Below, in pieces: positions 1 through 50,692 of a DNA stretch of 64,000 nt. Where the stretch lies: sequence record MT446421.1. One strand, 5' to 3'. A program made the position numbers and the translations under genes. How positions within the stretch are numbered: the stretch's first letter is position 1; every line of letters begins with the position of its first letter. This stretch comes from Escherichia virus TH55. The notes under the pieces were generated by a model. The model did not search any database and was not told where the DNA came from. It saw only the letters and a program-made list of their open reading frames with translations.

Positions 1-240
1 AAATTCATCACCAAAAATAAGACCGGTTCCATTACGACTATGGAAAGAAAATCCAGTTCCATCGATAGTACTAAATTCCGTCACAACATTTGCTTCCATC
101 TTGGTGACTGAAAACTCTTTGGTAGTAATCAAATCAATGATAGAGGTTCCTTGCTGGTTCAAAATGCAACCGGGCATACCGACATGTTTAAGGAAGCCAT
201 CTAAATCTTTAATGCAATAACTCTTTCCAATTTTAAACAT
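1..240 (-). CDS. hypothetical protein, 3' end cut by window edge
   Basis: ATG at 238-240 preceded by GAGGA; minus frame open to position 1 (MFKIGKSYCIKDLDGF...). Confidence 0.45.
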   Translation of the reverse strand, partial: MFKIGKSYCIKDLDGFLKHVGMPGCILNQQGTSIIDLITTKEFSVTKMEANVVTEFSTIDGTGFSFHSRNGTGLIFGDEF

Positions 241-247
241 AATATCC

Positions 248-508
248 TCATTCAAATCGGATGGTTGAATTCTTGAACAACAAACCAGAACAAACAGTTC
301 CTTCAACTTTCTTACCAGTTGGACCCACGGCCGTAAAGCCTGTGTGTTGGAAATCATCTTTACCACAAGAGAACCAATTATATCCGGTGATTTGGATTTG
401 CTCATAGCCGTTTGCATCTAATACACGAATGGCGTTATCTGCATCAGTACAACCAGCTAATGAAACTGCCAGAACCAGCGCAGCAATAGAACGATTAATG
501 TATTTCAT
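248..508 (-). CDS. putative lipoprotein
   Basis: 86-aa ORF; N-terminal signal peptide with lipobox LAGC. Confidence 0.55.
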   Translation of the reverse strand: MKYINRSIAALVLAVSLAGCTDADNAIRVLDANGYEQIQITGYNWFSCGKDDFQHTGFTAVGPTGKKVEGTVCSGLLFKNSTIRFE

Positions 509-514
509 AATTTC

Positions 515-691
515 TCACTTAGTCAGCAGGTCGTAAAAACCGCCATTAACATGTTTGGGAGCCGAGACTAACCGAACAGCCAGCCGATGACAATCAGGAC
601 AAACATCATTATCTCTTTCAGAGATTTTCTTGATTTTTTCGTATTCTTTCGCGCAGTCATCAGATTGGCATTTGTAATCATAAAGTGGCAT
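515..691 (-). CDS. FmdB-like zinc-ribbon small protein (58 aa)
   Basis: Not in ORF track (<60 aa); MPLYDYKCQSDDC...CPDCH CxxC/CxxC pattern; fills gap between neighbours. Confidence 0.45.
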   Translation of the reverse strand: MPLYDYKCQSDDCAKEYEKIKKISERDNDVCPDCHRLAVRLVSAPKHVNGGFYDLLTK

Positions 692-1892: not shown

Positions 1893-1899
1893 CTTAAAT

Positions 1900-2909: not shown

Positions 2910-2940
2910 TTTGTTATCCTCATCAGTAGTTGATGAGATG

Positions 2941-2969: not shown

Positions 2970-2976
2970 CTACTTT

Positions 2977-3660: not shown

Positions 3661-3737
3661 CGCACATCTCTTTTAATTTTTGAATTTCACCAGCAACCAT
3701 CGCACATCTCTTTTAATTTCTGAATTTCACCAGCAAC
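3658..3737. repeat. 40-bp tandem direct duplication (2 copies, 1 mismatch)
   Basis: catcgcacatctcttttaattt[t/c]tgaatttcaccagcaac at 3658-3697 and 3698-3737; spans dexA start. Confidence 0.85.
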
Positions 3738-5253: not shown

Positions 5254-5549
5254 GCCAATTTTACTCGCTTAACATATAAAGTATCTAAAATTAATTTCAA
5301 TTCTCGTGCGTGTTCTTCAGTAGGAAAAACAGTTTTTGTTCCCCACTTATCAAACCACCATTTTCTAGGTGTGCATACTGTTTCAATACGTCCCATGCGT
5401 AAATAGCGGCTTGTAGTATATGAATAGTTGGCAAGTTCATATTCTGCGCCCACTTTTGTGGTGTATAAGGTAACCTTTCCATCATACTCCAATGGGTGTT
5501 CAAAACCATCTTTATCTTTGTGGACCAGCACATATGCGTAGTACATCAC
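5250..5549 (-). CDS. hypothetical protein
   Basis: 99-aa ORF abutting dda. Confidence 0.5.
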   Translation of the reverse strand: MMYYAYVLVHKDKDGFEHPLEYDGKVTLYTTKVGAEYELANYSYTTSRYLRMGRIETVCTPRKWWFDKWGTKTVFPTEEHARELKLILDTLYVKRVKLA

Positions 5550-5550
5550 A

Positions 5551-6297
5551 TTAACCTCTAATCAGTTTAAAAATTGACGCGTTCAAAGGCAGACCACGTT
5601 TCAGTTTTAATTTACCAATAAAACCAATCTTCTCAAAACGCTCAAGACCTTGAATGATTTTATCATAGCAATCAAAAAGCGTTTCAGCATTAGTTAATTT
5701 CTTGGTAACTTTCCAGTCATTACCTTTGAGCAAGACGTTCAATTTAGTAAGCTCATGACCTTCCGCAATACGGGAACCATCAATGCGAGCCTTCAGAGCA
5801 ACCATTTTTAATTGGTTTTCTTTGGACTGCTCTGATTTACTCATTTGAGCATAATGCTTAACGCGATTCTCACGTTTGTGTTGGATGTTCTTGATATGGG
5901 TATATGACTTTTTAATCTGTTCCCATTTCTCTGCAGTCAGATTTAACTTTTCAATCTTCTTGACAGATGGACGAGCAATTTTTACAGCAACATCATCACG
6001 ACGTTGTTTAAGCTCATCCAGGGACCAATCAGAACGCATGGTGTTGTATTTCTTTTTAACAGGAATAACATTACCTTTGATATAACCAATGTCATTGTTA
6101 AAACGCTCTAATGATAACTTCTCACCTTCAATAGAGTTATTAAATGTTTCACCAGAATAAGCACAAACTTTTTGGTCAAGAATGTTAACCAGGTAATTGA
6201 AATCCAGGTTAAAGTCCTTGCCACGACGTTTAGCAGAAGCTTGAGTGTGTTCCAGGCGACGTTTAACTTTCAGCGTTTTGGTTTTTGATAAAGTCAT
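5551..6297 (-). CDS. hypothetical basic protein (T4 srd position); weak HNH-like segment
   Basis: 248 aa; LSLERFNNDIGYIKGNVIPV resembles degenerate HNH_3 motif; position between dda and the ARTs. Confidence 0.5.
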   Translation of the reverse strand: MTLSKTKTLKVKRRLEHTQASAKRRGKDFNLDFNYLVNILDQKVCAYSGETFNNSIEGEKLSLERFNNDIGYIKGNVIPVKKKYNTMRSDWSLDELKQRRDDVAVKIARPSVKKIEKLNLTAEKWEQIKKSYTHIKNIQHKRENRVKHYAQMSKSEQSKENQLKMVALKARIDGSRIAEGHELTKLNVLLKGNDWKVTKKLTNAETLFDCYDKIIQGLERFEKIGFIGKLKLKRGLPLNASIFKLIRG

Positions 6298-6344
6298 GAT
6301 ATTTTTCTCATCTTACGGACGATTTGGTAACTCAGTATGAAATT

Positions 6345-6372
6345 ATTATACACCGTTCATCTTTCATGTACA
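6345..6372 (-). promoter_or_regulatory. early-type promoter
   Basis: -35 TGTACA 6367-6372, 16 bp, -10 TATAAT 6345-6350; leader TACTGAGTTACCAAA. Confidence 0.5.
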
Positions 6373-6432
6373 CCACTTTTTCGCCTTTAACGCTTTTATT
6401 TTTACTGTGTATAATGGTTCTAAGGTCTTTGG

Positions 6433-7047
6433 TTAGTTCAAAACAGTCAAATGCCAAACAGTATACAGGTTATTCAATGGGTGTGTTTCAATCAAGTCTA
6501 CGCGGAGCGTAGTCCCAGCGGGAAACATAAACTCATCTTCATCATTAACCAGGTGCAAGTTTGACTTCCTGGTTGCTTCTGGATATGCACCATTGAACTC
6601 TTCAGGAGGAGCACCACAAATCATTTTGAAGATTGCTTCCTGATAGTTATACGCATATGGTGCATTGTTTATGCAGAAAATATTCCTTGTTCCATAGAAA
6701 CTGTATGATGCGAAATTTCTTGCAACCTGCCAGTCCCTGGAAAAACTCATTACACGATTGAATTCAATCGTTGCACCAACATATCTTAAATCTTCCAGGT
6801 ATTCCATAGTTTTCTTTGATATACCACGGAACAACGCCGGGGGTGGTGCAGTATTCAGATTGTTGCGGATAATCCTGGACAAGTCTTCTTGAATCAGGTC
6901 AGGTTTATTTTCCATACACTGCCAGAGTACTGATTGCTCATTATCTGTATAAAGAGCATCAATCTCCGCTTGGCATTGGTTACGAAAAGACTCACTAGAA
7001 GCGGCAGTGTCAATAATTCCATTCAAAACGTCATCAGTGTACAGCAT
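6433..7047 (-). CDS. ADP-ribosyltransferase, ModA/ModB-like
   Basis: R-S-E triad: LFRG, MSFSRD, DEDEFMF; start trimmed to ATG 7045-7047 (GAGGA SD). Confidence 0.65.
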   Translation of the reverse strand: MLYTDDVLNGIIDTAASSESFRNQCQAEIDALYTDNEQSVLWQCMENKPDLIQEDLSRIIRNNLNTAPPPALFRGISKKTMEYLEDLRYVGATIEFNRVMSFSRDWQVARNFASYSFYGTRNIFCINNAPYAYNYQEAIFKMICGAPPEEFNGAYPEATRKSNLHLVNDEDEFMFPAGTTLRVDLIETHPLNNLYTVWHLTVLN

Positions 7048-7078
7048 TTTATTATCCTCATCAGTAGTTGATAGGAAC

Positions 7079-7107
7079 ATCTTAACGTGTCTTATTGCTC
7101 TTGTACA
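7079..7107 (-). promoter_or_regulatory. early-type promoter
   Basis: -35 TGTACA 7102-7107, 17 bp, -10 TAAGAT 7079-7084; upstream of ART gene. Confidence 0.5.
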
Positions 7108-7652
7108 CAGTCAAGAACATAATAATCATCAATAAATCCAGCATCAACTACCACGAATTTCTGGTCAACTGGAACAAACCATTCAAGCTCGGAATCAATC
7201 ATGTCCATGTATTCTTCACGCCTTAATGTAGCTGCCCGTGCGGAACCAGAAGCTGTATTGAAGAATTCAAGTGGAACATCAAGTGCGATTTTGCGCATCG
7301 CATCATGGTAACAAAAAGCTTTGGTCTGATTCAATCTGACGATAGTCCTAGTCACATATTCCATTGCAGCAAAATCCCTGGCAATACCATAGTCTTCTGT
7401 AAAGGAGGTTATCCGTCCAAATTCAAAAGGTTGCATTGATTCTTTTGCTTCATCTAACAAATCAATCTCTTGCTGGGTTACCCCGCGCCACAAGACTGTA
7501 TCGGGTATAGACAACCTTGACTTGATGATTGAGTTGACATTTGAATGCAAGGTCTTATCAACCTTTGATGTACGGCATTCAAATAATGAAGCTATCTCCA
7601 TTTCACTAAATTTTAACTGGTTGGGTTCGGTATCAGATTTGATGATGTTCAT
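7092..7652 (-). CDS. ADP-ribosyltransferase, ModA/ModB-like
   Basis: R-S-E triad: LWRG, ITSFTED, DSELEWF; tandem with 6433..7047. Confidence 0.65.
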   Translation of the reverse strand: MNIIKSDTEPNQLKFSEMEIASLFECRTSKVDKTLHSNVNSIIKSRLSIPDTVLWRGVTQQEIDLLDEAKESMQPFEFGRITSFTEDYGIARDFAAMEYVTRTIVRLNQTKAFCYHDAMRKIALDVPLEFFNTASGSARAATLRREEYMDMIDSELEWFVPVDQKFVVVDAGFIDDYYVLDCVQEQ

Positions 7653-7708
7653 AATGGTCTCTCTGTTGTAAGAAAGACCATTATGTCATTAGGAGGGGAG
7701 TAAGTAAA

Positions 7709-7978
7709 CTACTTAAACACTCCAAGTGGAACGCCAAAGACTGCAATGTCTACGGCCATACCAATCGGAGATTGGTATGATGGAGATTGATATGATGAGT
7801 AAGAACTTTTCGATTTTATCGGGGTTTCGACTTTAATTGTCTCGGATTCAGTCTTAAGCCTTTGTAAACGATTAATTTTTTGTTGCTCGATTTCCTTATG
7901 AGCATGTTTACGGTCGATATCCAGCGCCGATGTGGGAATATTTGTTAACCAGTTCATTGTTTCACCCATGGTGCCCAT
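7709..7978 (-). CDS. hypothetical protein
   Basis: 89-aa ORF. Confidence 0.45.
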   Translation of the reverse strand: MGTMGETMNWLTNIPTSALDIDRKHAHKEIEQQKINRLQRLKTESETIKVETPIKSKSSYSSYQSPSYQSPIGMAVDIAVFGVPLGVFK

Positions 7979-8133
7979 GGAGGTGGGTCATCGTAATATG
8001 AGGCCAGGTCGCGTAGAACTTCCATTGGGAGGCTAAAACCGTGCTTCTGTATAATCGCATCAAGTTCGTCAACTAGGTCCACACGGGCTTCCGTAGGAGC
8101 TTTAGGCTCTTCAAAAAGTTCAAATAAATCCAT
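7954..8133 (-). CDS. small acidic protein (59 aa)
   Basis: Not in ORF track; ATG overlaps upstream stop (TAATG). Confidence 0.3.
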   Translation of the reverse strand: MDLFELFEEPKAPTEARVDLVDELDAIIQKHGFSLPMEVLRDLASYYDDPPPWAPWVKQ

Positions 8134-8615
8134 TAGTAACCACCGATAGGGCCGTAACCATACATACGAGCTCGGACTTTAGTATCGTGCAGAGCTTCTT
8201 CTGTTAAAGTAAAGCGCAGACCAATATCAAAGTGTTTCCAAATCTGACGTTCGACTTCAGCAAGGTCGTCGGTAGTGGAAATCAGATATGTGCGACCTTG
8301 AAGACGTTCAGTGGCCATTTTATCTCTATCTTTATAGAAAATGGTATCTTCGCCATAAAGGTCTGGGTGACGATAGCCTTTGATGTGCAGAGCTTCAGAA
8401 ACAGTAAACGGACACCCTTCGGCAACATCAACGTTTTTTCTATGAAATACCTTCAGCATAACGTTTTCTGGCATCGTCAAGTTCATTAATTTTGTTTCCA
8501 ATGCAGTGACCGAATCCATGCCATTGTAAACCATGATAAGGCATGCGGTAGCATCGTAAGGTCGTGTTTGACCTGCCGAATCACGGACATAGAATTCTAA
8601 TTCATATACTTTCAT
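8133..8615 (-). CDS. hypothetical protein (T4 mrh position)
   Basis: 160-aa ORF; AAGAGGA SD. Confidence 0.5.
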
Positions 8616-8761
8616 AATGTTTTCCTCTTACCGACTAATGGACCATCAGGAACTTTATTTTCCTTGATGTACTTTTCGTTTTCTTCCATCATTTTACTGC
8701 CAATTTTCAAAAGCAAATCCAGTGCTTCTTTTGCTCGGCGTTCAGCATCTTCTTGTGTCAT
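8612..8761 (-). CDS. small protein (49 aa)
   Basis: Not in ORF track; ATGA stop/start overlaps at both ends. Confidence 0.3.
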
Positions 8762-8952
8762 GATTTATCTCCGTAGATATCACGCATCAGTTTAAGCGCT
8801 GCTCGTTCGGTCTTCTTTTCCTGCATGGCTTTAAGCCCGTTAACGGCCCATTCTTCGGCTTCGCGCTGCATTTCTTCCTCGGCTCTGGCCACCCAGGAAT
8901 CATCAATCCCTGGAGTAACCAACCAATCTTTAAGCCAACTTGTAATTCTCAT
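8758..8952 (-). CDS. hypothetical protein
   Basis: 64 aa; N-terminal SWLKDW similar to next gene (SWLKNL). Confidence 0.45.
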
Positions 8953-9294
8953 TTAATCACACGAGCTGGAAGACGAATCACAGCTTCCCGAATCATAGGA
9001 GGAATAAGACGAATCACCGGTCCACGAACTAACTGCGGCAGCGGTGACCACAATCGAAGTAGTATCGATACTGCTTTGCGCTTGGGCTCTTTGTTCTTGC
9101 AGTCGAGTTAAACGTTTTTGTAAGTCTTCTTCTGACATTGTAGAATATAGGTCTTTTGATTTCGATTTGACCACTTCTTCCATCATACCATCACCCATGT
9201 AAGCATATTCTCTTAGCTTAACATCTGGCGGGCTAACTGGAACCACGCCCTCGTTTGGTTTAGTCTTGAATAAATTCTTGAGCCAACTAATCAT
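8953..9294 (-). CDS. hypothetical Ser-rich protein
   Basis: 113-aa ORF. Confidence 0.45.
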   Translation of the reverse strand: MISWLKNLFKTKPNEGVVPVSPPDVKLREYAYMGDGMMEEVVKSKSKDLYSTMSEEDLQKRLTRLQEQRAQAQSSIDTTSIVVTAAAVSSWTGDSSYSSYDSGSCDSSSSSCD

Positions 9295-9488
9295 AGGAAA
9301 CCTCGTTTAAATTCAACTTGACCATCATCATAACTGATTTCAATATTGAATTCTAAAGAGTCATCGTCATGCATCATGAATGAATGTACGATAACTTCAT
9401 CAAACACACCCAGACCATACTTAAAATGGACATCATGCGCAATAATTTCATCTAAAGCTTTGTTTGGTTTAATCCAACGGTTTAACAT
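9291..9488 (-). CDS. hypothetical protein
   Basis: 65-aa ORF. Confidence 0.45.
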   Translation of the reverse strand: MLNRWIKPNKALDEIIAHDVHFKYGLGVFDEVIVHSFMMHDDDSLEFNIEISYDDGQVEFKRGFL

Positions 9489-9513
9489 AGTATTCTCCTC
9501 TGTAATTGAAATA

Positions 9514-9538
9514 ATTATACCGCTTCTATTAAAAGCAA
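9514..9538 (-). promoter_or_regulatory. possible middle-type promoter (MotA-box-like TTGCTT plus -10)
   Basis: -10 TATAAT 9514-9519 with TTTTTGCTTTTA about 11 bp upstream; no -35. Confidence 0.3.
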
Positions 9539-9541
9539 AAA

Positions 9542-9559
9542 GGGACTCCGAAGAGTCCC
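9542..9559 (-). terminator. rho-independent terminator after soc
   Basis: GGGACTC-TTCG-GAGTCCC hairpin followed by TTTTTGCTTTT on minus strand. Confidence 0.7.
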
Positions 9560-9564
9560 TATAA

Positions 9565-9798
9565 TTAAACTACTGGGGTAGGCGTAAACATCGCCGCGTT
9601 CTTAGTTCGCCAATCAGCTGCACTAGACGCTACGGTGACATAAGCGGCCTTTTCGGAAGGAAAAGTCTGATAGTGTGCATTTGCAATACGATGCTCATTT
9701 GAATAGATTTCAAACGGAACAGATACTTCAACACCTTTAACTTCTTTACCTTCACCAGCTGGATGCGTAAAGGTTTTGATATTAACGAAACCACCCAT
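9565..9798 (-). CDS. soc: small outer capsid protein Soc
   Basis: 77 aa; VNIKTF...HYQTFPSEKAAY matches recalled T4 Soc; TATAAATA late motif upstream. Confidence 0.85.
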   Translation of the reverse strand: MGGFVNIKTFTHPAGEGKEVKGVEVSVPFEIYSNEHRIANAHYQTFPSEKAAYVTVASSAADWRTKNAAMFTPTPVV

Positions 9799-9829
9799 AA
9801 TTAACTCCTTTGTTGTTTAATTACGGGTG

Positions 9830-9837
9830 TATTTATA
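9830..9837 (-). promoter_or_regulatory. T4-type late promoter motif TATAAATA upstream of soc
   Basis: Exact TATAAATA on minus strand about 32 nt upstream of soc ATG. Confidence 0.55.
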
Positions 9838-9839
9838 AC

Positions 9840-10358
9840 TTAATAACCCCGGTCCTGACGAGCAAAGTTCTCAGCGTTTTTCAGGTAATACAATTTAAAG
9901 ATTTCTTCTGCAGTCAGTCCAAGGCCATGGAACATGTTCAGAACAAAGTGCAGGATATCAATCATCTCAAATTTAATTTCGAGCTGGTCTTCGGGAGACA
10001 ACTCATCAATACGACGATTACGGAATTCAGCATGTTGGACTTTCCATGGTTTCCATACACTAGATGCAGCTTTCTCGCCATTAGACATACCACCGAGAGA
10101 AGTCAGAAGTTCACGGAATTCGTCGTCGACATAATCTTTCTGGTTACGAAGCCATGCAACAACATCACCTGCAGTAGCCAATTCATCTGGATGTGAGTTA
10201 TATTCTGGTTTTTCAGTAGCCAGACGAACTTGCAATGATTTCTGCATATCAAGCATAATCTGCAGCGGGTCAGTACCTTTTGTAATTGCATTGTCATAAG
10301 CTTCTTCAGCTTTATCAACACCGGCAATCAGTTGTGAACATTCATTAAAATGAGCCAT
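9840..10358 (-). CDS. 56: dCTP/dUTP pyrophosphatase gp56 (MazG-like)
   Basis: Trimmed to ATG 10356-10358 (AAGGAAA SD), 172 aa; MazG-like helical motifs; T4 gene 56 position. Confidence 0.7.
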   Translation of the reverse strand: MAHFNECSQLIAGVDKAEEAYDNAITKGTDPLQIMLDMQKSLQVRLATEKPEYNSHPDELATAGDVVAWLRNQKDYVDDEFRELLTSLGGMSNGEKAASSVWKPWKVQHAEFRNRRIDELSPEDQLEIKFEMIDILHFVLNMFHGLGLTAEEIFKLYYLKNAENFARQDRGY

Positions 10359-10443
10359 TATATTTTTCCTTATCAATTCATGTTATTTTGTATGTTAATT
10401 ATATCATATTGGTTTGAAGCATAAATACACGGAAGGAGGATAT

Positions 10444-10641
10444 ATGCTCAAACTATCTAGTCTAATTCAAGCCATCAAAGGCAGTCGTAAGCGAACGATT
10501 CTGGTCCTTTCGATACTCTGTTTAGTTCTACTCTGGAACTTCGTTGTTGCCCCTGTTGCATTGACACATGGTGTTATATTACCAGTCATTGCACTCGAAT
10601 CAGTTGTAGATATTTTACTGGCATTAATCGGCCTTATATAG
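10444..10641 (+). CDS. small hydrophobic protein on plus strand
   Basis: ATG 10444 preceded by GGAAGGAGGA; two hydrophobic helices; only plus-strand candidate, in the 56-61 gap. Confidence 0.35.
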   Translation: MLKLSSLIQAIKGSRKRTILVLSILCLVLLWNFVVAPVALTHGVILPVIALESVVDILLALIGLI

Positions 10642-10759
10642 ATGGAATAATGTGAATATTATTCCATCGGATTTGGAAATTAACCAGTAAGAAAGACAAG
10701 AAACATCATGGGCTTTTTAGCTCTTGATGTTTTTCTGTGGAACTTACCGGAATCCCTTC

Positions 10760-11788
10760 CTAAACTTTTGCGTACTTCGAAAGTCGCATTCTCGCCATCA
10801 ACCCTTGAGCAATGTTATCGGCCATATATGATTCGATTTGTTCAGGGGTTGCGCCCTCCGATTTAACCATCTCATTTATGTCTTTCGTATGCCATGGTGC
10901 ATTGTCCCAGAACATAACGGCTTCACCCGCTTCAACGAGCTTCTTCATACGTTTAATCGTATCCGGATGTCTTGGCTCGTTGTCCATTACCCATACTCGG
11001 GTTTCAGCATAAGGAACGGCTTCCAATGCTAATGTTCCACCGGTTATCGCAATGCTGTTAGGGATAAACAAACTATCAATCGGACCTTCCATTACCCACA
11101 CGCGCTTGCGCTCATCAATCTTGTCTACGCCATAGACTTTGGAAGCTTCTGGGTGAGCTTTGATTGTGATATATTTTTGTGGTGCATCTTTGCGAAGAGC
11201 TCGTCCTTGGAAAGATTCGATTTCTTTTTTGCCGTTGAAGATAGGAATAACCAAGCGTGGTTCATTCGTTTCATTCTTATACGTCCCAGGATTAACGGAG
11301 TTAACTAATGCAGGCCATTTGTTTGTAAACCATAACCGGTTCCAAACATTGCTCGGAATACACCGACTTTTCACATACTTAACTATCGGATGCGCTTCTG
11401 GTAAAGTATCGATTCTTTCGCAAAAAGCAAGCTCTTCAATAACCGGAGTTTTTTCTTGTTCTTTCGGAGCTTCTGCAACTTCATTACGTTGTCGACCGAA
11501 GGCGTTTTCCTTGTACTTCTCAACCATATATTCCCGGTGCAAATCCGGCTCAAACTCTTTTATGTATTTGCTTATATGCGTGGAGTAGTCACAGTTAAAA
11601 CATTTCACGTAAACCGCACCATCAGACGGATTGGTATACGCCCAGAATCGAGCCTTGTGCGAATCTTTCTGGGAGTCACCACAAACCTTGCAACGACAGT
11701 TTGCCTTAAATGTGCTCCCGGTGACTTCTCTATAACGTGGTTGATACGATAAAGCTCTGACTGCAAATTCTCTATCAATATATGACAT
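10760..11788 (-). CDS. 61: DNA primase gp61
   Basis: 342 aa; N-terminal Cys4 zinc-binding CRCKVCGD...CFNCDY; T4 gene 61 position and length. Confidence 0.85.
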   Translation of the reverse strand: MSYIDREFAVRALSYQPRYREVTGSTFKANCRCKVCGDSQKDSHKARFWAYTNPSDGAVYVKCFNCDYSTHISKYIKEFEPDLHREYMVEKYKENAFGRQRNEVAEAPKEQEKTPVIEELAFCERIDTLPEAHPIVKYVKSRCIPSNVWNRLWFTNKWPALVNSVNPGTYKNETNEPRLVIPIFNGKKEIESFQGRALRKDAPQKYITIKAHPEASKVYGVDKIDERKRVWVMEGPIDSLFIPNSIAITGGTLALEAVPYAETRVWVMDNEPRHPDTIKRMKKLVEAGEAVMFWDNAPWHTKDINEMVKSEGATPEQIESYMADNIAQGLMARMRLSKYAKV

Positions 11789-12007
11789 AGTTTCCTCATT
11801 TCAATGGCCCCGAAGGACCATTATACTGTAGGTTTATCGTCTTTATTCTTACGCTTTTTTGATGGGATTTGTTCAGGGCCTTTATTGACAACTGCCCCGG
11901 AAGTGGTACCTGTTGCGATATTAGTTGGGTTTCCACCTGCATCACCGGCAGCCATATCTTCGTTGATAAAATCTTTGAATGTTTTCATAACACCCCCTTT
12001 CCGCTAT

Positions 12008-12199
12008 TTATACAACGAAGATAGCTTTATCACCATTTGCATCAGTCACTTCATAAGTGTCTTCATGATACAACGGAATAATCCAGGTAACACCATCATC
12101 AGCGATAACATGGATTGCTTCTTGGTCTTGCGACACGATTTCATATTCTTCAAAAATCTGGAAGACCGAAATCTTAGAGCCCGTACACATTGCACTCAT
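12008..12199 (-). CDS. hypothetical protein
   Basis: 63-aa acidic ORF. Confidence 0.4.
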   Translation of the reverse strand: MSAMCTGSKISVFQIFEEYEIVSQDQEAIHVIADDGVTWIIPLYHEDTYEVTDANGDKAIFVV

Positions 12200-12395
12200 A
12201 TTGTTCCCTTCTTTTAATCAATTGACGATGTGCCTTTTTAAGTTTACGAATCTGACGTTTGGTCGGTCGTGCAACATAAGCTTGAGTAGTTACTCGTCCA
12301 AAAACTCCATACTTGGGAGACGGAGTATCAATAAAGACTTCCCACTGACAAGAGTAACTATATATTGCTTTAGAGAATTGGGTCAAAACAAACAT
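12174..12395 (-). CDS. small basic protein, PTKRQIR family
   Basis: 73 aa; W-E-V-F-I ... RPTKRQIRKLKK shared with 13548..13787 and 35532..35708. Confidence 0.5.
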   Translation of the reverse strand: MFVLTQFSKAIYSYSCQWEVFIDTPSPKYGVFGRVTTQAYVARPTKRQIRKLKKAHRQLIKRREQYECNVYGL

Positions 12396-12396
12396 A

Positions 12397-12756
12397 TTAA
12401 CCTCGCTTCATGAAGGCATTAAAAATCTGGTCATCAATATCAGTAGGCGGTTCTTGAGCTTTAACCCAAGCCCCTTCCAGAATGTCATTTGCTTCAGTAG
12501 ATATCATGACCCCAATTTCAGGGTTTCCGGTTATCCATACTGCACAATCGCGTACGTTCTTTTTATCAAATGGATAACCACGATTATCTTCACAAGGCCC
12601 ATTCATTGTCATAAACGAACGAGCCTTTATGATAACACCATCTTTAACGATGATATAACCAATCGCCTGATTATAACGGGGCTCACGAAATTCATAGTGA
12701 GCATTACCATTATTATTGCTCACCAGTTCAAAATTCAGAAAATTATAATAACTCAT
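12397..12756 (-). CDS. hypothetical protein
   Basis: 119 aa; C-terminus DDQIFNAFMKRG identical to that of next gene. Confidence 0.5.
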   Translation of the reverse strand: MSYYNFLNFELVSNNNGNAHYEFREPRYNQAIGYIIVKDGVIIKARSFMTMNGPCEDNRGYPFDKKNVRDCAVWITGNPEIGVMISTEANDILEGAWVKAQEPPTDIDDQIFNAFMKRG

Positions 12757-12757
12757 A

Positions 12758-13195
12758 CTAATCTCGCTTCATGAAGGCATTAAAAATCTGGTCGTCAACT
12801 GAATAAACAGGATTTTCCAGAATTTTCAAAAGACTGTTTTTGATGTACTTGCCAGGGATACCCATATTAACAATACTGTCATTCAATTCATTGTCAGGGT
12901 TGATGTCTTTAAATTCAAACCCTTCAAACTCAACCTTGTCAGGAATACCATCAGCGAAAAAATAAACCAATTGGTGCATTGTATTGCGCGAAAATAATTT
13001 AGACTTGACTGCAATAAGTTCTTTCCAATGGTTTAATTCTTTGTTAAGAAGTTTATGAGCAAACGTAATTCTATCATCACTATCAACAAGAAAATAACCC
13101 AGATATTGAATTTCGTCGCTCCAAAACACCCTGTATGCCTGCGCATTTGGATTTTTACAACGAAGTTTTTTGATAACCAAATTTCTGTTAATCAT
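12758..13195 (-). CDS. hypothetical protein
   Basis: Trimmed to ATG 13193-13195 (AGGTGA SD); C-terminus DDQIFNAFMKRD. Confidence 0.45.
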   Translation of the reverse strand: MINRNLVIKKLRCKNPNAQAYRVFWSDEIQYLGYFLVDSDDRITFAHKLLNKELNHWKELIAVKSKLFSRNTMHQLVYFFADGIPDKVEFEGFEFKDINPDNELNDSIVNMGIPGKYIKNSLLKILENPVYSVDDQIFNAFMKRD

Positions 13196-13196
13196 T

Positions 13197-13490
13197 TTAT
13201 TCACCTGTAACCCATTGAACAATTTTGCTATTGTCAAATGAAGCATCGCAATACAGAACATAGTTATACTGCATAACGTCACCAGAAGTCAATTGGTCAG
13301 ATACTTCTTTAACCATATCAGGGCGGTCACGTTTAGTAATATTCATGATGTCAGCGCGAATTTGAGTTTCAACATCAGTTTGGTCCGCAGTCATAGACCA
13401 CTCACAAAGGTTTTTATCAAGTCCAGCAGTAACTGGAGCTGTACCACATGATGCTACGGTAAGAATTGCCGCGATTAATAACTTTTTCAT
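13197..13490 (-). CDS. putative lipoprotein
   Basis: 97 aa; signal peptide with lipobox VASC; GGAG SD. Confidence 0.55.
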   Translation of the reverse strand: MKKLLIAAILTVASCGTAPVTAGLDKNLCEWSMTADQTDVETQIRADIMNITKRDRPDMVKEVSDQLTSGDVMQYNYVLYCDASFDNSKIVQWVTGE

Positions 13491-46232: not shown

Positions 46233-46515
46233 CTTCCAATTTTACCTTCATTAATTTAGCGTATTCGACTGCAGCAGCACGGCCATCAATTTGACATGTG
46301 ATTTCATTTACACATTGACTCTTATTGTTCCATTCAGTTTTAATAAAAGCCCAAAATTGTTCGGACTGCTCGACGCTGGGTTCTTTGAATTGCGAATAGA
46401 TTTGCATCGCACTATCTGCATACTGGGTAAATTTACCATCTGTCGCAGAGGACATATTTGGGCCTAAACAGCCCATTAGTAATAGACTTAGAGAAAGTCC
46501 TCGAATAAGGTCCAT
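46222..46515 (-). CDS. rI: lysis-inhibition regulator RI (antiholin)
   Basis: Trimmed to ATG 46513-46515 (AAGGAG SD), 97 aa; signal-anchor plus C-terminal region resembling recalled T4 RI. Confidence 0.7.
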   Translation of the reverse strand: MDLIRGLSLSLLLMGCLGPNMSSATDGKFTQYADSAMQIYSQFKEPSVEQSEQFWAFIKTEWNNKSQCVNEITCQIDGRAAAVEYAKLMKVKLEDEI

Positions 46516-46589
46516 AAAGGACTCCTTATTGTTGGTCATGATTACGCTTTGCAGCCTTAACATAGCGGAATACTAGTTAGTAACTGTAT

Positions 46590-46865
46590 TTATAATCTTT
46601 TAAATTTGAAACAATACATTGCAAATAAATCAGAAAAATGTCTATCAACCCATATTCTTTGCACTGGACTAGTCACAGTCAGCATATAATGTGATTTTTG
46701 TAAATTTATTCCATTTTTATTCGGGCATTCTTTATTAACAGAATGGTACGTGCTTGCTACTATTTCAATTTCCCTTTCATATCTCTCGCTATCTGTTTGT
46801 GTGGGAATAAATGCAATTCCAGCAATAACAAAAATAGAGATATACGTCCAAACCTTGTATACCAT
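46590..46865 (-). CDS. membrane-anchored protein
   Basis: 91 aa; N-terminal TM helix. Confidence 0.45.
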   Translation of the reverse strand: MVYKVWTYISIFVIAGIAFIPTQTDSERYEREIEIVASTYHSVNKECPNKNGINLQKSHYMLTVTSPVQRIWVDRHFSDLFAMYCFKFKRL

Positions 46866-46872
46866 GCGAACC

Positions 46873-47445
46873 TCAGCTTGTTAATTCGAGCCAGTGTTTT
46901 CTGCATAAAGATACGTACGATTCATTCCCACCGACTAACACTTGCTCGCCGTCCTTTACAGCAGCACCGTCGATTACTCTCGCGGTCATGGTTGCTTTCC
47001 GGCCGCAATGACAGACGCCCTTTAATTCAACCAGTTTATCCGAAATAGCCAGAAGTCTGGCTGAACCGGGAAATAATTGACCCCGAAAATCTGTTCTTAA
47101 CCCGTAACACATAACGGGGATATTGTAATTATCAACCACTTGAGCTAACTGGTCAATTTGCTCTGGTAACAAAAATTGAGCTTCATCGACCAGGACACAA
47201 TGGATATCCTTTTGAGACTCGGCCCATTTATAGAATTCAAACAGGTTCATGTCGGCCGTTACCAGGTTTGCTTCCTGGCTAATACCAATACGTGATTTAA
47301 TTTCAGATTCCGAGTCCCGATTATCAATAACAGGTTTTAGCAAAAGCACACTCATTCCACGCTCTTTATAGGAATAAGCTGCAGTCAGCAATGAAGCTGT
47401 TTTGCCTGCATTCATTGCTGCGTAATGATAAATTAAACTCGCCAT
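46873..47445 (-). CDS. tk: thymidine kinase
   Basis: 190 aa; P-loop AAMNAGKT, C-terminal Cys/His zinc site CHCGRKA. Confidence 0.9.
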   Translation of the reverse strand: MASLIYHYAAMNAGKTASLLTAAYSYKERGMSVLLLKPVIDNRDSESEIKSRIGISQEANLVTADMNLFEFYKWAESQKDIHCVLVDEAQFLLPEQIDQLAQVVDNYNIPVMCYGLRTDFRGQLFPGSARLLAISDKLVELKGVCHCGRKATMTARVIDGAAVKDGEQVLVGGNESYVSLCRKHWLELTS

Positions 47446-47454
47446 ATCACCTTC

Positions 47455-47640
47455 TTAAAGCGTATTCACATAAGCTATTAATTCGTTTTCTTTCGCATCA
47501 AATCGATTAGCAAATTCTTCTTGCTGTTCGGGAGATAGCGGGCCATATTCATCGTAAAAAGCGTTTGCTTCTGTATGCTCATCCAAAAGCTCATGGATAA
47601 GCTCAAACAATCTACTTTTCTGACTAATACTTAAACTCAT
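47455..47640 (-). CDS. hypothetical acidic protein
   Basis: 61-aa ORF. Confidence 0.4.
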   Translation of the reverse strand: MSLSISQKSRLFELIHELLDEHTEANAFYDEYGPLSPEQQEEFANRFDAKENELIAYVNTL

Positions 47641-47843
47641 TTCGGTTCACCATATCGCACAAATTTAGGATGTTCGCAATAACCAGAATGAAAACCTTCA
47701 CCCTTATGATTAGAACATCCTTTATTAGAACAGTACCACCAGTAATCAAATTCACATTCCATTTCGTCGTTGCATAAAGCTGCGATTACTGGCCATTCGC
47801 ATTTTTCACATTTGGCCGTTTTAAGAATTCGGGCTTGACTCAT
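47637..47843 (-). CDS. Cys-rich small protein
   Basis: 68 aa with 8 Cys (CEKCEW...CSNKGC...). Confidence 0.45.
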   Translation of the reverse strand: MSQARILKTAKCEKCEWPVIAALCNDEMECEFDYWWYCSNKGCSNHKGEGFHSGYCEHPKFVRYGEPK

Positions 47844-48016
47844 AATTCAATTCCATCCATAACCAAAATTCTTTTTCGTTGGGTCTTGAGAGCTTCGTTA
47901 GCCCGGTCATAATCTTCTTGACTACCGCTAGGCTGTAAAGCCGCTACCTTTTTGGCCAAGTGAATAAGCTTATCCAAGTTTTCAACAATACGTTCTTGTT
48001 CTTCATTCAGGCTCAT
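47840..48016 (-). CDS. small protein (58 aa)
   Basis: Not in ORF track; ATGA overlap with downstream start. Confidence 0.3.
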   Translation of the reverse strand: MSLNEEQERIVENLDKLIHLAKKVAALQPSGSQEDYDRANEALKTQRKRILVMDGIEL

Positions 48017-48467
48017 AATCCACCACTATTAAATCAATATCAGGAGTAAACATGTCGATTAATTTAGAAACCTTTTCCCAATCTCCACCTGCAATACCAC
48101 AACCAATGCGAGGAATGTAAATTACCGGTTTAAACAAAAGGGTTTCTGCTTGTAGATTTAATTCTATCATACAATTTACTAAAGCACCATAATCAAGATT
48201 AGGGCCCGGTTCATATTGAGTGTACAAATTATAACACATACCAAACCCAGTAGGTTTATGTTTAAAAACAATAGACATATCGCCTAATTTATCACGAGAA
48301 CCATATTCAGTGGTGGTTTTATCTATTTCTAAAACTTTTGGATAGGCCTTCGCCAACTGTCCAGCTACACCAGAACCCATTGTGTGGAAGCAGTTACAAC
48401 CATGAGCAATAATATTGCCTTGAAGAAAGAGGGCGACGATATCGCCCTTAATATACTGGGTAATCAT
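48003..48467 (-). CDS. macro-domain-like protein (possible ADP-ribose binding/processing)
   Basis: 154 aa; IAHGCNC...MGSGVAG and IGCGIAGG glycine-rich segments resemble macro-domain motifs; tentative. Confidence 0.5.
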   Translation of the reverse strand: MITQYIKGDIVALFLQGNIIAHGCNCFHTMGSGVAGQLAKAYPKVLEIDKTTTEYGSRDKLGDMSIVFKHKPTGFGMCYNLYTQYEPGPNLDYGALVNCMIELNLQAETLLFKPVIYIPRIGCGIAGGDWEKVSKLIDMFTPDIDLIVVDYEPE

Positions 48468-48823
48468 TTAGAGTTCAATCCTCTATTATATGAATCCACT
48501 AACCTGTCAACCATACTGGTGCAGGCCGCCTTATATTTTGCACTTGAAAGAATGCAATCCATTTCAAATAATTTCTTTTCATATTTGTTGGATAATACAT
48601 TCTTTTTCAAAAGTGTATGTTCAACATCATTTTGGCCATCTTTATATGCCGCGGTGAGCTTGGCGCTGAACTGGATTACACAATCCACATTGCTTGGTGC
48701 GCAATAATCTTTAGCCGTCCTCGTTGCATATTCTATGATGCTGTTGTTGTCATCGCTCTGTACTGAAGCTATTCCTCCCATGCTGAATACTAACCCTATG
48801 GCTAAAGTGATAACTCTTACCAT
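48464..48823 (-). CDS. secreted/periplasmic protein
   Basis: 119 aa; N-terminal signal peptide. Confidence 0.5.
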   Translation of the reverse strand: MVRVITLAIGLVFSMGGIASVQSDDNNSIIEYATRTAKDYCAPSNVDCVIQFSAKLTAAYKDGQNDVEHTLLKKNVLSNKYEKKLFEMDCILSSAKYKAACTSMVDRLVDSYNRGLNSK

Positions 48824-48825
48824 TT

Positions 48826-49368
48826 TTAATCCACCGTTTTTAATAGGCCTCGTGATTTTAAGTAGTTAGCTTTTTCTAGGACCTGTGAAGCATACGTATT
48901 ACCAGCTTTCACATTCCATCCTGCGTTATATGATGATAGTGTTTTCCTTATATCCCCCTTATGAATATTCAACCAGTATGAAAGCTCAATGTAAGCCCAG
49001 CGTGCACTGTTCTCTCTCTTGCTTATCATTTTGATTATTTCTTTATCTGTCATTGTCCACCCAACCTGTTTCACGCGTTCGCGCACGGTTGGAAGATAAT
49101 TTTGGAATATACCATATGCATGATGCTTATCTTTATTTAATCCAGTATTAATCCCAGCAGAACTCTCCTGCCAGGTTAAACCAGCCATGATATATCCCAA
49201 ACCATTATGTTGGTGCGGATTTTCTTTGTACTTACCATTTTTCTGGAACTGTTCTCCAAACGCATAAGCATATTGGAGGTTTTCCATTTGTTCATTACTG
49301 AAAGTAGGCTCTACGCTATGGGCAGACATACTAACTGTCAATAGTAAGGTGGCGATTACTTTTTTCAT
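48826..49368 (-). CDS. lytic transglycosylase-like periplasmic protein (SLT domain)
   Basis: 180 aa; signal peptide; TWQESSAG ... GIFQ catalytic-motif pattern. Confidence 0.6.
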   Translation of the reverse strand: MKKVIATLLLTVSMSAHSVEPTFSNEQMENLQYAYAFGEQFQKNGKYKENPHQHNGLGYIMAGLTWQESSAGINTGLNKDKHHAYGIFQNYLPTVRERVKQVGWTMTDKEIIKMISKRENSARWAYIELSYWLNIHKGDIRKTLSSYNAGWNVKAGNTYASQVLEKANYLKSRGLLKTVD

Positions 49369-49378
49369 GAATTCCCCA

Positions 49379-49837
49379 TTAGATATAAATCACTTTTGTG
49401 CTAATTTTTCCTTCCAGACGATTAGAGTTAACAAACGCCATACGACAACACATGGTCGGAGACTTCCCAGGAATAGCGGGGTTAACTGTCATTCCTAACC
49501 ATAGGTTCTTGTCCGTGATTTCCAGACGAAGTGGACGGTAGTTCACATTCGGGTCAATTTGTGCTTCAACTTCCGGGAGTGGTTTCATCTCCAAGAATTC
49601 AACGATTTCTTTTACATGTGGTGTGATTTTTCCAAACAAGTCAAAAACATATTGTTCATCAATTTCACGCTGGATTGCACGGTCCAACAGGTGTGGACTG
49701 TACTTAATGAAGAATGCCTCAAGGCCTGCTTCTTTACAAGCCTTGTTGATAGCATTATTAATTTTGAGGAACTCCGTTTCAAAAATGCGACGAAGTTTAT
49801 TGCGGCGAATGTAAACACTTGAATCGATAGTAGTCAT
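49379..49837 (-). CDS. regB: endoribonuclease RegB
   Basis: Trimmed to ATG 49835-49837 (AAGGAGA SD), 153 aa; VYIRRNKLRR...HLLDRAIQREIDE matches recalled T4 RegB. Confidence 0.85.
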   Translation of the reverse strand: MTTIDSSVYIRRNKLRRIFETEFLKINNAINKACKEAGLEAFFIKYSPHLLDRAIQREIDEQYVFDLFGKITPHVKEIVEFLEMKPLPEVEAQIDPNVNYRPLRLEITDKNLWLGMTVNPAIPGKSPTMCCRMAFVNSNRLEGKISTKVIYI

Positions 49838-49864
49838 GATTATCTCCTTTTGTTTGATGGGATA

Positions 49865-49893
49865 ATCATAACTCATTTCAATCTGCTTGTACA
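49865..49893 (-). promoter_or_regulatory. early-type promoter upstream of regB
   Basis: -35 TGTACA 49888-49893, 17 bp, -10 TATGAT 49865-49870. Confidence 0.55.
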
Positions 49894-50473
<580 letters not shown>

Positions 50474-50477
<4 letters not shown>

Positions 50478-50692
50478 TTCACTTCCTCATCAGATGCAAT
50501 ATCATATTCTACAAAACGAAGGCCATCATATCCACCCCGAACAGAGATATACGTAGTCGGGTAAACAATTTCTTTACCATTCCATTGGCCACCGTCCCAA
50601 CATTCCATAAAGCCTTGTTCGCCCTGTTCGTGGAACCAGTCAACAAACATCTTCAGAGCTTCTTCAGAACCTTCAATAGTCAATTTAGACAT
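50474..50692 (-). CDS. hypothetical protein
   Basis: 72-aa ORF. Confidence 0.45.

What the first reader, a model, noticed from the sequence alone, without database searches (positions are those of the whole stretch)
48003..48467. Macro-domain-like protein upstream of the lytic transglycosylase and regB
Glycine-rich segments IAHGCNC...MGSGVAG and IPRIGCGIAGG resemble the ADP-ribose-binding loops of macro domains. Phage macro domains can remove ADP-ribose or degrade ADP-ribose-derived defence signals, so this is a plausible anti-defence candidate. The call is tentative.
Basis: inference. Interest (0 to 1): 0.45.

Follow-up and report, generated by a model that had tools for sequence, protein, structure and literature searches.

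The report
Phage macrodomain: T4 Tk.4/AdfM ortholog
This is a real macro-domain (ADP-ribose-handling) gene in a T4-like E. coli phage; its T4 counterpart was recently shown to protect the phage from the DarTG2 DNA-ADP-ribosylating defence, so the call is right but already known.

Summary
The 154-aa ORF at 48003..48467 lies on the minus strand and contains both quoted glycine-rich loops. It passes Pfam Macro (33.2 bits; cut-off 22). The AlphaFold2 model is confident (pLDDT 95). Its best structural matches are TARG1, BT1257, DarG, Poa1p and SCO6735.

The window is 100% identical to Escherichia phage UPEC07 (Gaprivervirus), where this gene is already annotated "macro domain-containing protein". 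It is the syntenic ortholog of T4 Tk.4 (57% identity; same regB–vs.1–vs–tk.4–tk order). A 2025 preprint named tk.4 adfM because deleting it makes T4 sensitive to DarTG2.

The most likely function is removal of ADP-ribose that DarT2 places on thymidines of phage ssDNA. This step is inferred; no T4-type protein has been assayed.

The protein is not a DarG. It has an invariant Gln84 where DarG and TARG1 have the catalytic lysine, as in SCO6735, and it has no DarT-binding domain.

The main rival is ADPR-1''-phosphate phosphatase activity, shown for homologs (Adpp) inside phage NARP1 operons. This phage has no NARP1 genes.

Interest: low.

The parts
48003..48467 (-). Macro-domain ORF, 154 aa; ortholog of T4 Tk.4 (AdfM); identical to QUL77641.1 of Escherichia phage UPEC07
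   Evidence: ORF. Pfam Macro 33.2 bits against a cut-off of 22. PHROG 335, E 1.7e-70. 100% DNA identity to UPEC07, annotated 'macro domain-containing protein'. 57% identity to T4 Tk.4, E 2e-69. Model pLDDT 95.1.
48363..48404 (-). Loop 1, residues 22-35 (HGCNCFHTMGSGVA): the catalytic and phosphate-binding loop of the macro fold. It includes H22, N25 and the G31-x-G33 motif.
   Evidence: H22, G23, N25 and C26 in 118/118; G33 and A35 in 120/120 homologs. Aligns with SCO6735 H24-V25-C26-N27...G33-K34-G35. The SCO6735 N27S mutant is nearly inactive (PMC9411070).
48216..48230 (-). N80-L-Y-T-Q84 strand end. Gln84 occupies the position of the catalytic Lys of TARG1 (K84) and DarG (K80), and of Gln85 in SCO6735.
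   Evidence: N80, Y82 and Q84 in 120/120 homologs. The profile alignment places family 'tq' on TARG1 'TK' and on BT1257 'GQ'. SCO6735 'IGQ85' aligns likewise. SCO6735 Q85A is inactive.
48078..48113 (-). Loop 2, residues 119-130 (PRIGCGIAGGDW): the diphosphate-binding glycine loop
   Evidence: P119 in 119/119, G122 and G124 in 118/118, W130 in 119/119. Aligns with TARG1 PRIGCGLDRLQW, BT1257 PRIGCGLAGGKW and SCO6735 PRIG126CG128LAGGTW.
48464..48823 (-). Context: vs (valyl-tRNA synthetase modifier), immediately 5' of the macro gene. Its stop overlaps the macro start as ATGA.
   Evidence: PHROG 1256, E 8.5e-33. Sequence read directly. GenBank annotation.
48826..49368 (-).
   Evidence: PHROG 600, E 2e-67. 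Pfam SLT only 14.4 bits, below its cut-off. T4 Vs.1 lies at the same position.
49379..49894 (-). Context: regB endoribonuclease
   Evidence: Pfam REGB_T4, E 3.2e-72.
46873..47445 (-). Context: tk thymidine kinase. The three small ORFs between it and the macro gene (47455..47640, 47637..47843, 47840..48016) occupy the T4 tk.1-tk.3 positions.
   Evidence: Pfam TK, E 5.7e-58. Phage_zn_bind, E 1.6e-29, for 47637..47843. T4 gene order.

Best explanation
The gene encodes a stand-alone, catalytically competent macrodomain of the ALC1/TARG1-like class. It is the ortholog of phage T4 Tk.4, recently named AdfM (anti-DarT factor, macrodomain).

Proposed mechanism. When the phage infects a host carrying the DarTG2 toxin-antitoxin defence, the DarT2 toxin uses NAD+ to attach ADP-ribose to thymidines in TNTC motifs of single-stranded phage DNA, which blocks replication. 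The phage macrodomain binds the ADP-ribose through its two glycine-rich loops and hydrolyses the bond at C1'' of the distal ribose. This releases free ADP-ribose and restores unmodified DNA. It acts as an orphan antitoxin-like eraser.

Chemically it should work like SCO6735 rather than DarG. Gln84, held by Asn25, positions the distal ribose, and a water molecule attacks. There is no catalytic lysine.

What is shown here: the macro fold, the conserved active-site residues, and orthology and synteny with T4 tk.4. What is shown elsewhere: the T4 tk.4 knockout loses DarTG2 resistance, and Gln-type SCO6735 removes ADP-ribose from thymidine. What is inferred: that this ortholog has the same phenotype, and that the mechanism is direct de-ADP-ribosylation of DNA.
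For: 1. Fold and family. Pfam Macro is above threshold. The model has pLDDT 95.1 and pTM 0.90. The top Foldseek PDB matches are TARG1 4j5r (E 6.5e-9, TM 0.74-0.81), BT1257, Thermus DarG 5m31, Poa1p, M. tuberculosis DarG 5m3i and SCO6735 5e3b, all at probability 1.00. Sequence searches of the PDB return the same set.

2. Orthology. The protein is 57% identical to T4 Tk.4 over 153 residues with no gaps, E 2e-69. The gene order regB-vs.1-vs-tk.4-tk.3/2/1-tk is the same.

3. Function of the ortholog. tk.4 was the only significant hit when a T4 transposon library infected a DarTG2 host, and a clean knockout sensitised T4 (10.1101/2025.11.20.689424). Independently, T4 lacking adfA and adfN stayed fully DarTG2-resistant, which predicted a further factor (PMC11825919).

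4. Active site. H22, N25, Q84, G122 and G124 are invariant in 120 homologs. They map onto SCO6735 H24, N27, Q85, G126 and G128. SCO6735 Q85A is dead and N27S nearly dead. SCO6735 cleaves thymidine-linked ADP-ribose on ssDNA and rescues DarT toxicity (PMC9411070).

5. Consistency check. Phage T5, which is DarTG2-sensitive, has no homolog (tblastn E > 0.6; the family HMM finds nothing at E <= 10).

6. Precedent. A stand-alone phage macrodomain does counter DarT2 by removing ADP-ribose from DNA in vitro (PhiKZ gp104; PMC13309987).
Against: No T4-type protein has been assayed biochemically. The preprint infers hydrolysis from structural similarity to DarG.

The window protein is only 57% identical to T4 Tk.4 and comes from a different genus, so its phenotype is extrapolated.

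Two lysines that position DNA in SCO6735 are missing. K34 (K34E nearly inactive) corresponds to Ser32, a position that is A, S or G and never K or R in 120 homologs. The loop that carries K89 is about 7 residues shorter here.

The same homologous family contains proven ADPR-1''-phosphate phosphatases, and the active-site residues do not distinguish the two activities.

The T5 correlation is a single case.
Confidence: 0.68

Rival explanations
1. The protein is an ADPR-1''-phosphate phosphatase (Adpp- or Poa1p-like). It would convert ADPR-1''-P, the product of RES-domain NADases such as the aRES defence, into ADP-ribose. This could be its main role or a second activity of the same active site.
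For: PHROG 335 is labelled 'phosphatase', and the T4 record notes an 'A1pp phosphatase motif'. Yeast Poa1p is a PDB sequence hit (E 1.5e-9) and a fold hit. Homologs at 35-39% identity in Vibrio phage River4 and Acinetobacter phage Aci01-1 lie between Adps-like and Namat-like genes and share H22, N25, Q84, G122 and G124. The NARP1-associated macrodomain of Vibrio phage Gary converts ADPR-1P to ADPR in vitro and is needed to overcome aRES (10.64898/2026.01.28.702374).
Against: In that work the phosphatase was tested only as part of the three-gene operon, which lost activity when any gene was inactivated. The whole UPEC07 genome has no Adps or Namat homolog (tblastn E > 0.9). The T4 ortholog's only reported phenotype is against DarTG2. 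The NARP1-linked homologs keep K/R at position 32 and a longer basic loop after Q84, both of which the T4-type clade lacks. They therefore look like a separate subgroup.
Confidence: 0.15
2. The protein erases or tunes the phage's own ADP-ribosylation (Alt, ModA, ModB), or removes host protein ADP-ribosylation.
For: The phage encodes ModA and ModB in this window (about 6433..7652, minus strand) and an Alt-like RNA polymerase ADP-ribosylase elsewhere. TARG1 and SCO6735 also remove Glu/Asp-linked protein ADP-ribose.
Against: From established knowledge, Alt and ModA modify arginine, a linkage macrodomains are not known to cleave. The macro gene is about 40 kb from modA/modB with no operon link. 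The T4 screen hit was specific to DarTG2.
Confidence: 0.07
3. The protein degrades or sequesters ADP-ribose-derived immune signals such as Thoeris cyclic ADPR isomers.
For: This was proposed on general grounds for viral macro domains (PMC9503650). The fold binds ADP-ribose.
Against: No experiment or gene context links this family to signal degradation in anything read here. No hit to any anti-Thoeris family was seen. A specific DarTG2 phenotype already accounts for retention of the gene.
Confidence: 0.05
4. The protein is a non-catalytic ADP-ribose reader or a direct DarT2-binding inhibitor.
For: Some macrodomains are readers only. The DNA-positioning lysines of SCO6735 are absent.
Against: The residues required for catalysis in SCO6735 (N27, Q85, G128) are invariant here. 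In DarG, toxin binding is done by a separate C-terminal domain, which this 154-aa protein lacks (PMC11825919).
Confidence: 0.05

Closest known systems
Phage T4 Tk.4 = AdfM (anti-DarT factor, macrodomain; bioRxiv 10.1101/2025.11.20.689424)
   Same: 57% identical over the full length with no gaps. Same length (154 against 155 aa). Same position between vs and the small tk.x genes. Same invariant H22, N25 and Q84 and the same G-loops.
   Different: Different genus (Gaprivervirus against Tequatrovirus). Loop 2 here is the family consensus GCGIAGGDW, whereas T4 has GAGIGKGNW. No phenotype has been measured for this ortholog.
Streptomyces coelicolor SCO6735 (PDB 5e3b) and Bacteroides BT1257 (2fg1/2afc): Gln-type ALC1-like macrodomains
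   Same: Gln replaces the catalytic Lys. The Asn, His and Gly residues of the active site are conserved. Both are stand-alone domains of about 150 aa. BT1257 is the best PDB sequence hit (E 9e-11; profile E 9e-21).
   Different: 26-30% identity. The 'mobile loop' after the Gln is about 7 residues shorter here, and the DNA-contacting K34 and K89 are absent. Those proteins are cellular, not viral.
DarG antitoxin macrodomain of DarTG2 (Thermus 5m31/5m3e, M. tuberculosis 5m3i)
   Same: Same fold class (Foldseek E about 1e-7, TM about 0.72). Same predicted job of reversing thymidine ADP-ribosylation by DarT2.
   Different: Gln84 in place of the catalytic Lys80. No C-terminal DarT-binding domain. 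No adjacent darT. The NCBIfam DarG score is 30.7 against a cut-off of 250.
PhiKZ gp104, also named AdfM (PMC13309987)
   Same: A stand-alone phage macrodomain that counters DarTG2. Removal of ADP-ribose from DarT2-modified DNA is shown in vitro.
   Different: It is a DarG-type macrodomain with the FPTK lysine motif. BLASTP to the window protein finds only two short local matches (E 1e-3). It is imported into the phage nucleus. The two proteins share a name but belong to different subfamilies.
Adpp, the NARP1-associated ADPR-1''-phosphate phosphatase (Vibrio phage Gary; bioRxiv 10.64898/2026.01.28.702374), and yeast Poa1p
   Same: NARP1-embedded homologs of the same broad family are 35-39% identical to the window protein and share its core motifs. 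Poa1p is a significant PDB hit.
   Different: Adpp genes lie inside Adps-Namat operons, and this phage has none. They keep K/R at position 32 and a longer basic loop. Poa1p F152 corresponds to Ala126 here.
Human TARG1 (OARD1)
   Same: Best Foldseek match (E 6.5e-9). TARG1 also removes thymidine-linked DNA ADP-ribose.
   Different: The Lys84/Asp125 catalytic dyad is replaced by Gln84/Ala126.

Membership tests
Macro domain superfamily (Pfam PF01661) | Profile score at or above Pfam's gathering cut-off | tested here: met
   33.2 bits against 22, E 5.6e-8, profile positions 2-117 of 118
Macro domain superfamily (Pfam PF01661) | Three-layer alpha/beta/alpha macro fold | tested here: met
   Model pLDDT 95.1, pTM 0.90. 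125 PDB matches at E <= 0.001, and the top 50 listed are macrodomains or scaffolds built on them.
Macro domain superfamily (Pfam PF01661) | Two glycine-rich ADP-ribose-binding loops, conserved in homologs | tested here: met
   G31 in 110/120, G33 in 120/120, G122 and G124 in 118/118
Macro domain superfamily (Pfam PF01661) | Binds ADP-ribose | not testable with these tools
   Needs ITC or a co-crystal structure
T4 Tk.4 / AdfM orthologous group | Full-length similarity to T4 Tk.4 | tested here: met
   57% identity over 153 of 154 residues, E 2e-69
T4 Tk.4 / AdfM orthologous group | Conserved position between vs and the tk.x genes of the regB-tk block | tested here: met
T4 Tk.4 / AdfM orthologous group | Required for phage growth on DarTG2 hosts | not testable with these tools
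   Shown only for T4
DarG antitoxin (NCBIfam NF048014, PADLOC DarG) | Family profile score above the curated cut-off | tested here: not met
   30.7 bits against 250. PADLOC DarG 30.8 bits over the macro part only.
DarG antitoxin (NCBIfam NF048014, PADLOC DarG) | Catalytic lysine (Lys80) in the PTK motif | tested here: not met
   Gln84 in YTQ, with no Lys between residues 72 and 112
DarG antitoxin (NCBIfam NF048014, PADLOC DarG) | C-terminal DarT-binding domain and an adjacent darT gene | tested here: not met
   The protein ends at residue 154. Its neighbours are vs and a 58-aa ORF.
Gln-type ALC1-like macrodomains (SCO6735 / BT1257) | Gln at the TARG1-K84 / DarG-K80 position, supported by the loop-1 Asn | tested here: met
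   Q84 and N25 are invariant and align to SCO6735 Q85 and N27
Gln-type ALC1-like macrodomains (SCO6735 / BT1257) | Extended basic mobile loop (K89, K93) and K34 for ssDNA positioning | tested here: not met
   Ser32 in place of K34. The loop after Q84 is about 7 residues shorter.
Gln-type ALC1-like macrodomains (SCO6735 / BT1257) | Hydrolysis of thymidine-linked ADP-ribose on ssDNA | not testable with these tools
   Needs a gel-shift assay on a DarT2-modified oligonucleotide
TARG1 | Lys84/Asp125 catalytic dyad | tested here: not met
   Gln84/Ala126
Adpp (NARP1-AP phosphatase) | Encoded within or next to an Adps-Namat (NARP1) operon | tested here: not met
   No Adps or Namat homolog anywhere in the 170-kb genome (tblastn E > 0.9)
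Adpp (NARP1-AP phosphatase) | ADPR-1''-phosphate phosphatase activity | not testable with these tools
   Needs LC-MS with purified ADPR-1P, as
PhiKZ-type AdfM (gp104) | DarG-like sequence including the FPTK motif | tested here: not met
   BLASTP finds only two short local matches, E 1e-3. The motif is absent.

The most novel reading that the evidence does not exclude
The T4-type clade (Gln84, Ser/Ala32, short loop after the Gln) may be a mechanistically distinct eraser. It lacks both the catalytic Lys of DarG and the DNA-positioning lysines of SCO6735. It may therefore engage ADP-ribosylated DNA in a new way. Alternatively, it may be a generalist C1''-hydrolase that acts both on thymidine-linked DNA ADP-ribose (anti-DarTG2) and on small molecules such as ADPR-1''-phosphate (the aRES product). 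That would make one small protein a multi-system anti-defence enzyme.
Probability: 0.2. Interest if true: 0.5.

Novelty: already known. Interest (0 to 1): 0.2.

Why it matters
The finding confirms that a sequence-only reading can pick out a genuine phage counter-defence enzyme. The gene itself adds little. It is already annotated as a macro domain in GenBank, macro domains occur in about 41% of myoviruses (PMC9503650), and the T4 ortholog already has a name and a phenotype.

What remains open is biochemical. No T4-type AdfM has been shown to de-ADP-ribosylate DNA. The family also spans two demonstrated anti-defence roles (anti-DarTG2 and ADPR-1P phosphatase) with the same core active site, so substrate specificity within it is worth measuring.

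Tried and rejected
1. DarG membership. Rejected: profile scores are far below the cut-off, there is no catalytic Lys, no second domain and no darT neighbour.

2. Equivalence with the PhiKZ 'AdfM'. Rejected: it belongs to a different, Lys-type subfamily and shares only the name.

3. Adpp/NARP1-AP role. I scanned the whole UPEC07 genome, fetched in five pieces, for Adps and Namat with two divergent queries each. Nothing was found.

4. Net charge as a clue to DNA binding. Uninformative: the protein is net -6, the same as PhiKZ gp104, which does act on DNA.

5. Own promoter or terminator. Promoter-like and terminator-like sites in 46500..50500 are no more frequent than in shuffles (9 against 12.8; 4 against 3.0). 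The one promoter-like site near the start has its -10 hexamer inside the ORF. The gene is most likely co-transcribed and translationally coupled with vs.

6. A NADAR (AdfN) or AdfA partner among ten ORFs in window 1-13300. No NADAR was found, and only a sub-threshold AdfA C-terminal match. The rest of the window was not scanned for NADAR.

7. MAFFT of distant references placed a 2-residue gap before Q84, so Q84 fell one residue beyond the KK pair rather than on TARG1 K84. I relied instead on the HMMER profile alignments and on the published structural alignment.

Full report
**Observation.** An ATG-initiated ORF of 154 aa lies at 48003..48467 on the minus strand. All genes in this block are on the minus strand. 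The order of transcription is regB (49379..49894), vs.1 (48826..49368), vs (48464..48823), the macro gene, three small ORFs, then tk (46873..47445). The macro gene is therefore downstream of regB and of the transglycosylase-like vs.1. Its direct 5' neighbour is vs, whose TGA overlaps the macro ATG as ATGA. Promoter-like and terminator-like sites in the region are no more frequent than in shuffled sequence. Co-transcription and translational coupling with vs is the simplest reading.

**Is it a macro domain?** Yes.
- Pfam Macro PF01661 scores 33.2 bits against a gathering cut-off of 22 (E 5.6e-8) over nearly the whole profile.
- PHROG 335 matches at E 1.7e-70.
- An AlphaFold2 model built on 47 homologs has mean pLDDT 95.1 and pTM 0.90.
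- Foldseek against the PDB gives probability-1.00 matches. The best are TARG1 (4j5r, E 6.5e-9, TM 0.74-0.81), BT1257, Thermus and M. tuberculosis DarG, Poa1p and SCO6735.
- Sequence searches of the PDB give the same set. This places the protein in the ALC1/TARG1-like class.
H22, G23, N25 and C26 are 118/118. G33 and A35 are 120/120. G122 and G124 are 118/118. W130 is 119/119.

**Identity of the window and the gene.** The window is 100% identical over its whole length to Escherichia phage UPEC07 (MW250787; Straboviridae, Tevenvirinae, Gaprivervirus). There the gene is QUL77641.1, already annotated 'macro domain-containing protein'. It is 57% identical, without gaps, to T4 Tk.4 (E 2e-69). T4 has the same order regB-vs.1-(vs)-tk.4-tk.x-tk. 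This is a syntenic ortholog.

**What is known about the ortholog.** A November 2025 preprint (10.1101/2025.11.20.689424) infected a DarTG2-expressing host with a T4 transposon library. It found tk.4 as the single significant hit, and a clean knockout sensitised T4 to DarTG2. The authors named the gene adfM. They inferred, from structural similarity to DarG, that it removes ADP-ribose from DNA. This fits earlier work in which T4 lacking adfA and adfN remained fully DarTG2-resistant (PMC11825919).

A separate study gave the same name to PhiKZ gp104 and showed in vitro removal of ADP-ribose from DarT2-modified DNA (PMC13309987). I translated gp104. It is a DarG-type macrodomain with the FPTK lysine motif. 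BLASTP against the window protein finds only two short local matches (E 1e-3). The two 'AdfM' proteins are therefore different subfamilies.

**Active site.** DarG and TARG1 use a catalytic lysine, K80 and K84 respectively. I checked my recalled DarG sequence against the PDB; the TARG1 stretch containing K84 appears in the alignment. In the window protein that position is Gln84, in an N-x-Y-T-Q motif that is 120/120 conserved. TARG1's Asp125 corresponds to Ala126.

This is the arrangement described for SCO6735 and BT1257. In SCO6735, Gln85 replaces the lysine, Q85A is inactive, and N27S is nearly inactive. The enzyme still cleaves thymidine-linked ADP-ribose on ssDNA and rescues DarT toxicity, through a proposed water-mediated mechanism (PMC9411070). 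Using the 5e3b sequence recovered, SCO6735 H24, V25, N27, Q85, G126 and G128 map to window H22, G23, N25, Q84, G122 and G124. The catalytic apparatus of a Gln-type thymidine-ADP-ribose hydrolase is therefore present.

There are two differences. SCO6735 K34 (K34E nearly dead on DNA) is Ser32 here, and this position is never K or R in the 120 homologs. The loop carrying K89 is about 7 residues shorter. How the T4-type proteins hold DNA is therefore not explained by the SCO6735 model.

**A second documented function in the same family.** Two tblastn hits had striking neighbours. In Vibrio phage River4 and in Acinetobacter phage Aci01-1, the homolog lies between a PRPP-synthetase-like gene and a NAMPT-like gene. 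A January 2026 preprint (10.64898/2026.01.28.702374) explains this arrangement. About 15% of phage NARP1 operons (Adps plus Namat, which rebuild NAD+ from ADP-ribose and nicotinamide) include a Poa1p-like macrodomain, Adpp. It dephosphorylates ADPR-1''-phosphate, the product of the aRES RES-domain defence, and this was shown in vitro for Vibrio phage Gary.

These NARP1-embedded homologs are 35-39% identical to the window protein and share H22, N25, Q84, G122 and G124. They keep K/R at position 32 and a longer basic loop.

To weigh this rival I fetched the entire UPEC07 genome. I searched it with Adps-like and Namat-like proteins from both phages and found nothing (E > 0.9). The macro gene is the only family member in the genome. 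Adpp was shown to work only within its three-gene operon, so an Adpp role is unlikely to be the reason this phage keeps the gene. The activity itself cannot be excluded from sequence.

**Consistency check.** T5 is the DarTG2-sensitive control in both DarTG papers. Its full genome has no homolog of this family or of DarG-type macrodomains (tblastn E > 0.6; the family HMM finds nothing at E <= 10). This is a single case, but it goes in the expected direction.

**Conclusion.** The gene is the Gaprivervirus ortholog of T4 Tk.4/AdfM. It most likely counters DarTG2 by removing ADP-ribose from thymidines of phage ssDNA, using a Gln-type, lysine-independent active site (confidence about 0.68). The main rival is ADPR-1''-phosphate phosphatase activity (about 0.15). 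Smaller rivals are erasing the phage's own or host protein ADP-ribosylation, acting on ADPR-derived signals, and non-catalytic binding.

The protein is not a member of the DarG family: profile score, catalytic Lys, second domain and darT linkage were all tested and not met. It does plausibly work like DarG. The gene is already annotated and its ortholog already characterised genetically, so novelty is 'already known' and interest is low. The open points are direct biochemistry for the T4-type clade and the substrate range across this two-function family.

Noticed in passing
L005:3132-6191 (Vibrio phage River4) and L006:904-4474 (Acinetobacter phage Aci01-1): Homologs of the window macrodomain (35-39% identity) lie directly between or next to a PRPP-synthetase-like gene and a NAMPT-like gene. 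This is the NARP1-AP arrangement (Adps-Adpp-Namat) described in bioRxiv 10.64898/2026.01.28.702374. In GenBank they are still 'hypothetical protein'.
   Followed up: yes
window 6433..7080 (-) and 7092..7652 (-): ORFs annotated in UPEC07 as the ModA and ModB ADP-ribosyltransferases. Neither gave any Pfam hit at E <= 0.01. The phage therefore carries both ADP-ribose writers and an eraser, about 40 kb apart.
   Followed up: partly
window 12397..12756 (-) and 12758..13282 (-): At the gene 61.x position, where T-even phages carry adfA, the 119-aa ORF has only a sub-threshold match to the last 14 positions of Pfam AdfA (E 3e-4, 20.7 bits against 27). The 174-aa ORF has no Pfam hit. AdfA may be divergent, split or absent in this phage.
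   Followed up: no
window 8133..8615 (-), and many others in the UPEC07 record: Several GenBank product names in UPEC07 look like T4 gene symbols misread as functions. Window 8133..8615 is Pfam T4_MRH (E 2e-43) but is annotated 'molybdenum ABC transporter, periplasmic molybdenum-binding protein'. ORFs in the region where T4 has MobD.x ORFs are called 'molybdopterin-guanine dinucleotide biosynthesis protein MobD'. A run of eight ORFs is labelled 'thioredoxin'. A second 'thymidine kinase' and several 'endoribonuclease' labels sit on small ORFs.
   Followed up: partly
window 1..625: Window 1-625 matches the start of the UPEC07 record, and window 535 onward matches its end. Bases 535-625 (91 bp) are therefore present at both ends of the linear 'partial genome' record. 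This looks like an assembly overlap of a circularly permuted genome.
   Followed up: partly
window 48430..48448 (-): An 8-bp GC-rich hairpin followed by a T-rich run (AGGGCGATATCGTCGCCCT CTTTCTT) lies inside the 5' end of the macro ORF. The count of terminator-like sites in the region is not above shuffles (4 against 3.0), so it is probably chance.
   Followed up: no
window 47840..48016 (-): The 58-aa ORF just 3' of the macro gene overlaps it by 14 nt (T4 tk.3 position, PHROG 3452). It has a weak sub-threshold Pfam SLATT_4 match (E 0.0023, 18.1 bits against 27), most likely spurious.
   Followed up: no
L012:6447-8094 (phage T5, T5.102-T5.105): T5 lacks any homolog of this macro family. It does carry two genes annotated Sir2-like in one early block, so it has other NAD+/ADP-ribose-related genes. 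I did not examine them.
   Followed up: no
L009:4152-4607 (UPEC07 record 104152-104607, outside the window): A gene annotated 'RNA ligase/cyclic nucleotide phosphodiesterase'. From memory, this may correspond to a 2H-phosphoesterase of the anti-CBASS Acb1 kind. That would be another nucleotide-directed counter-defence gene in the same phage.
   Followed up: no
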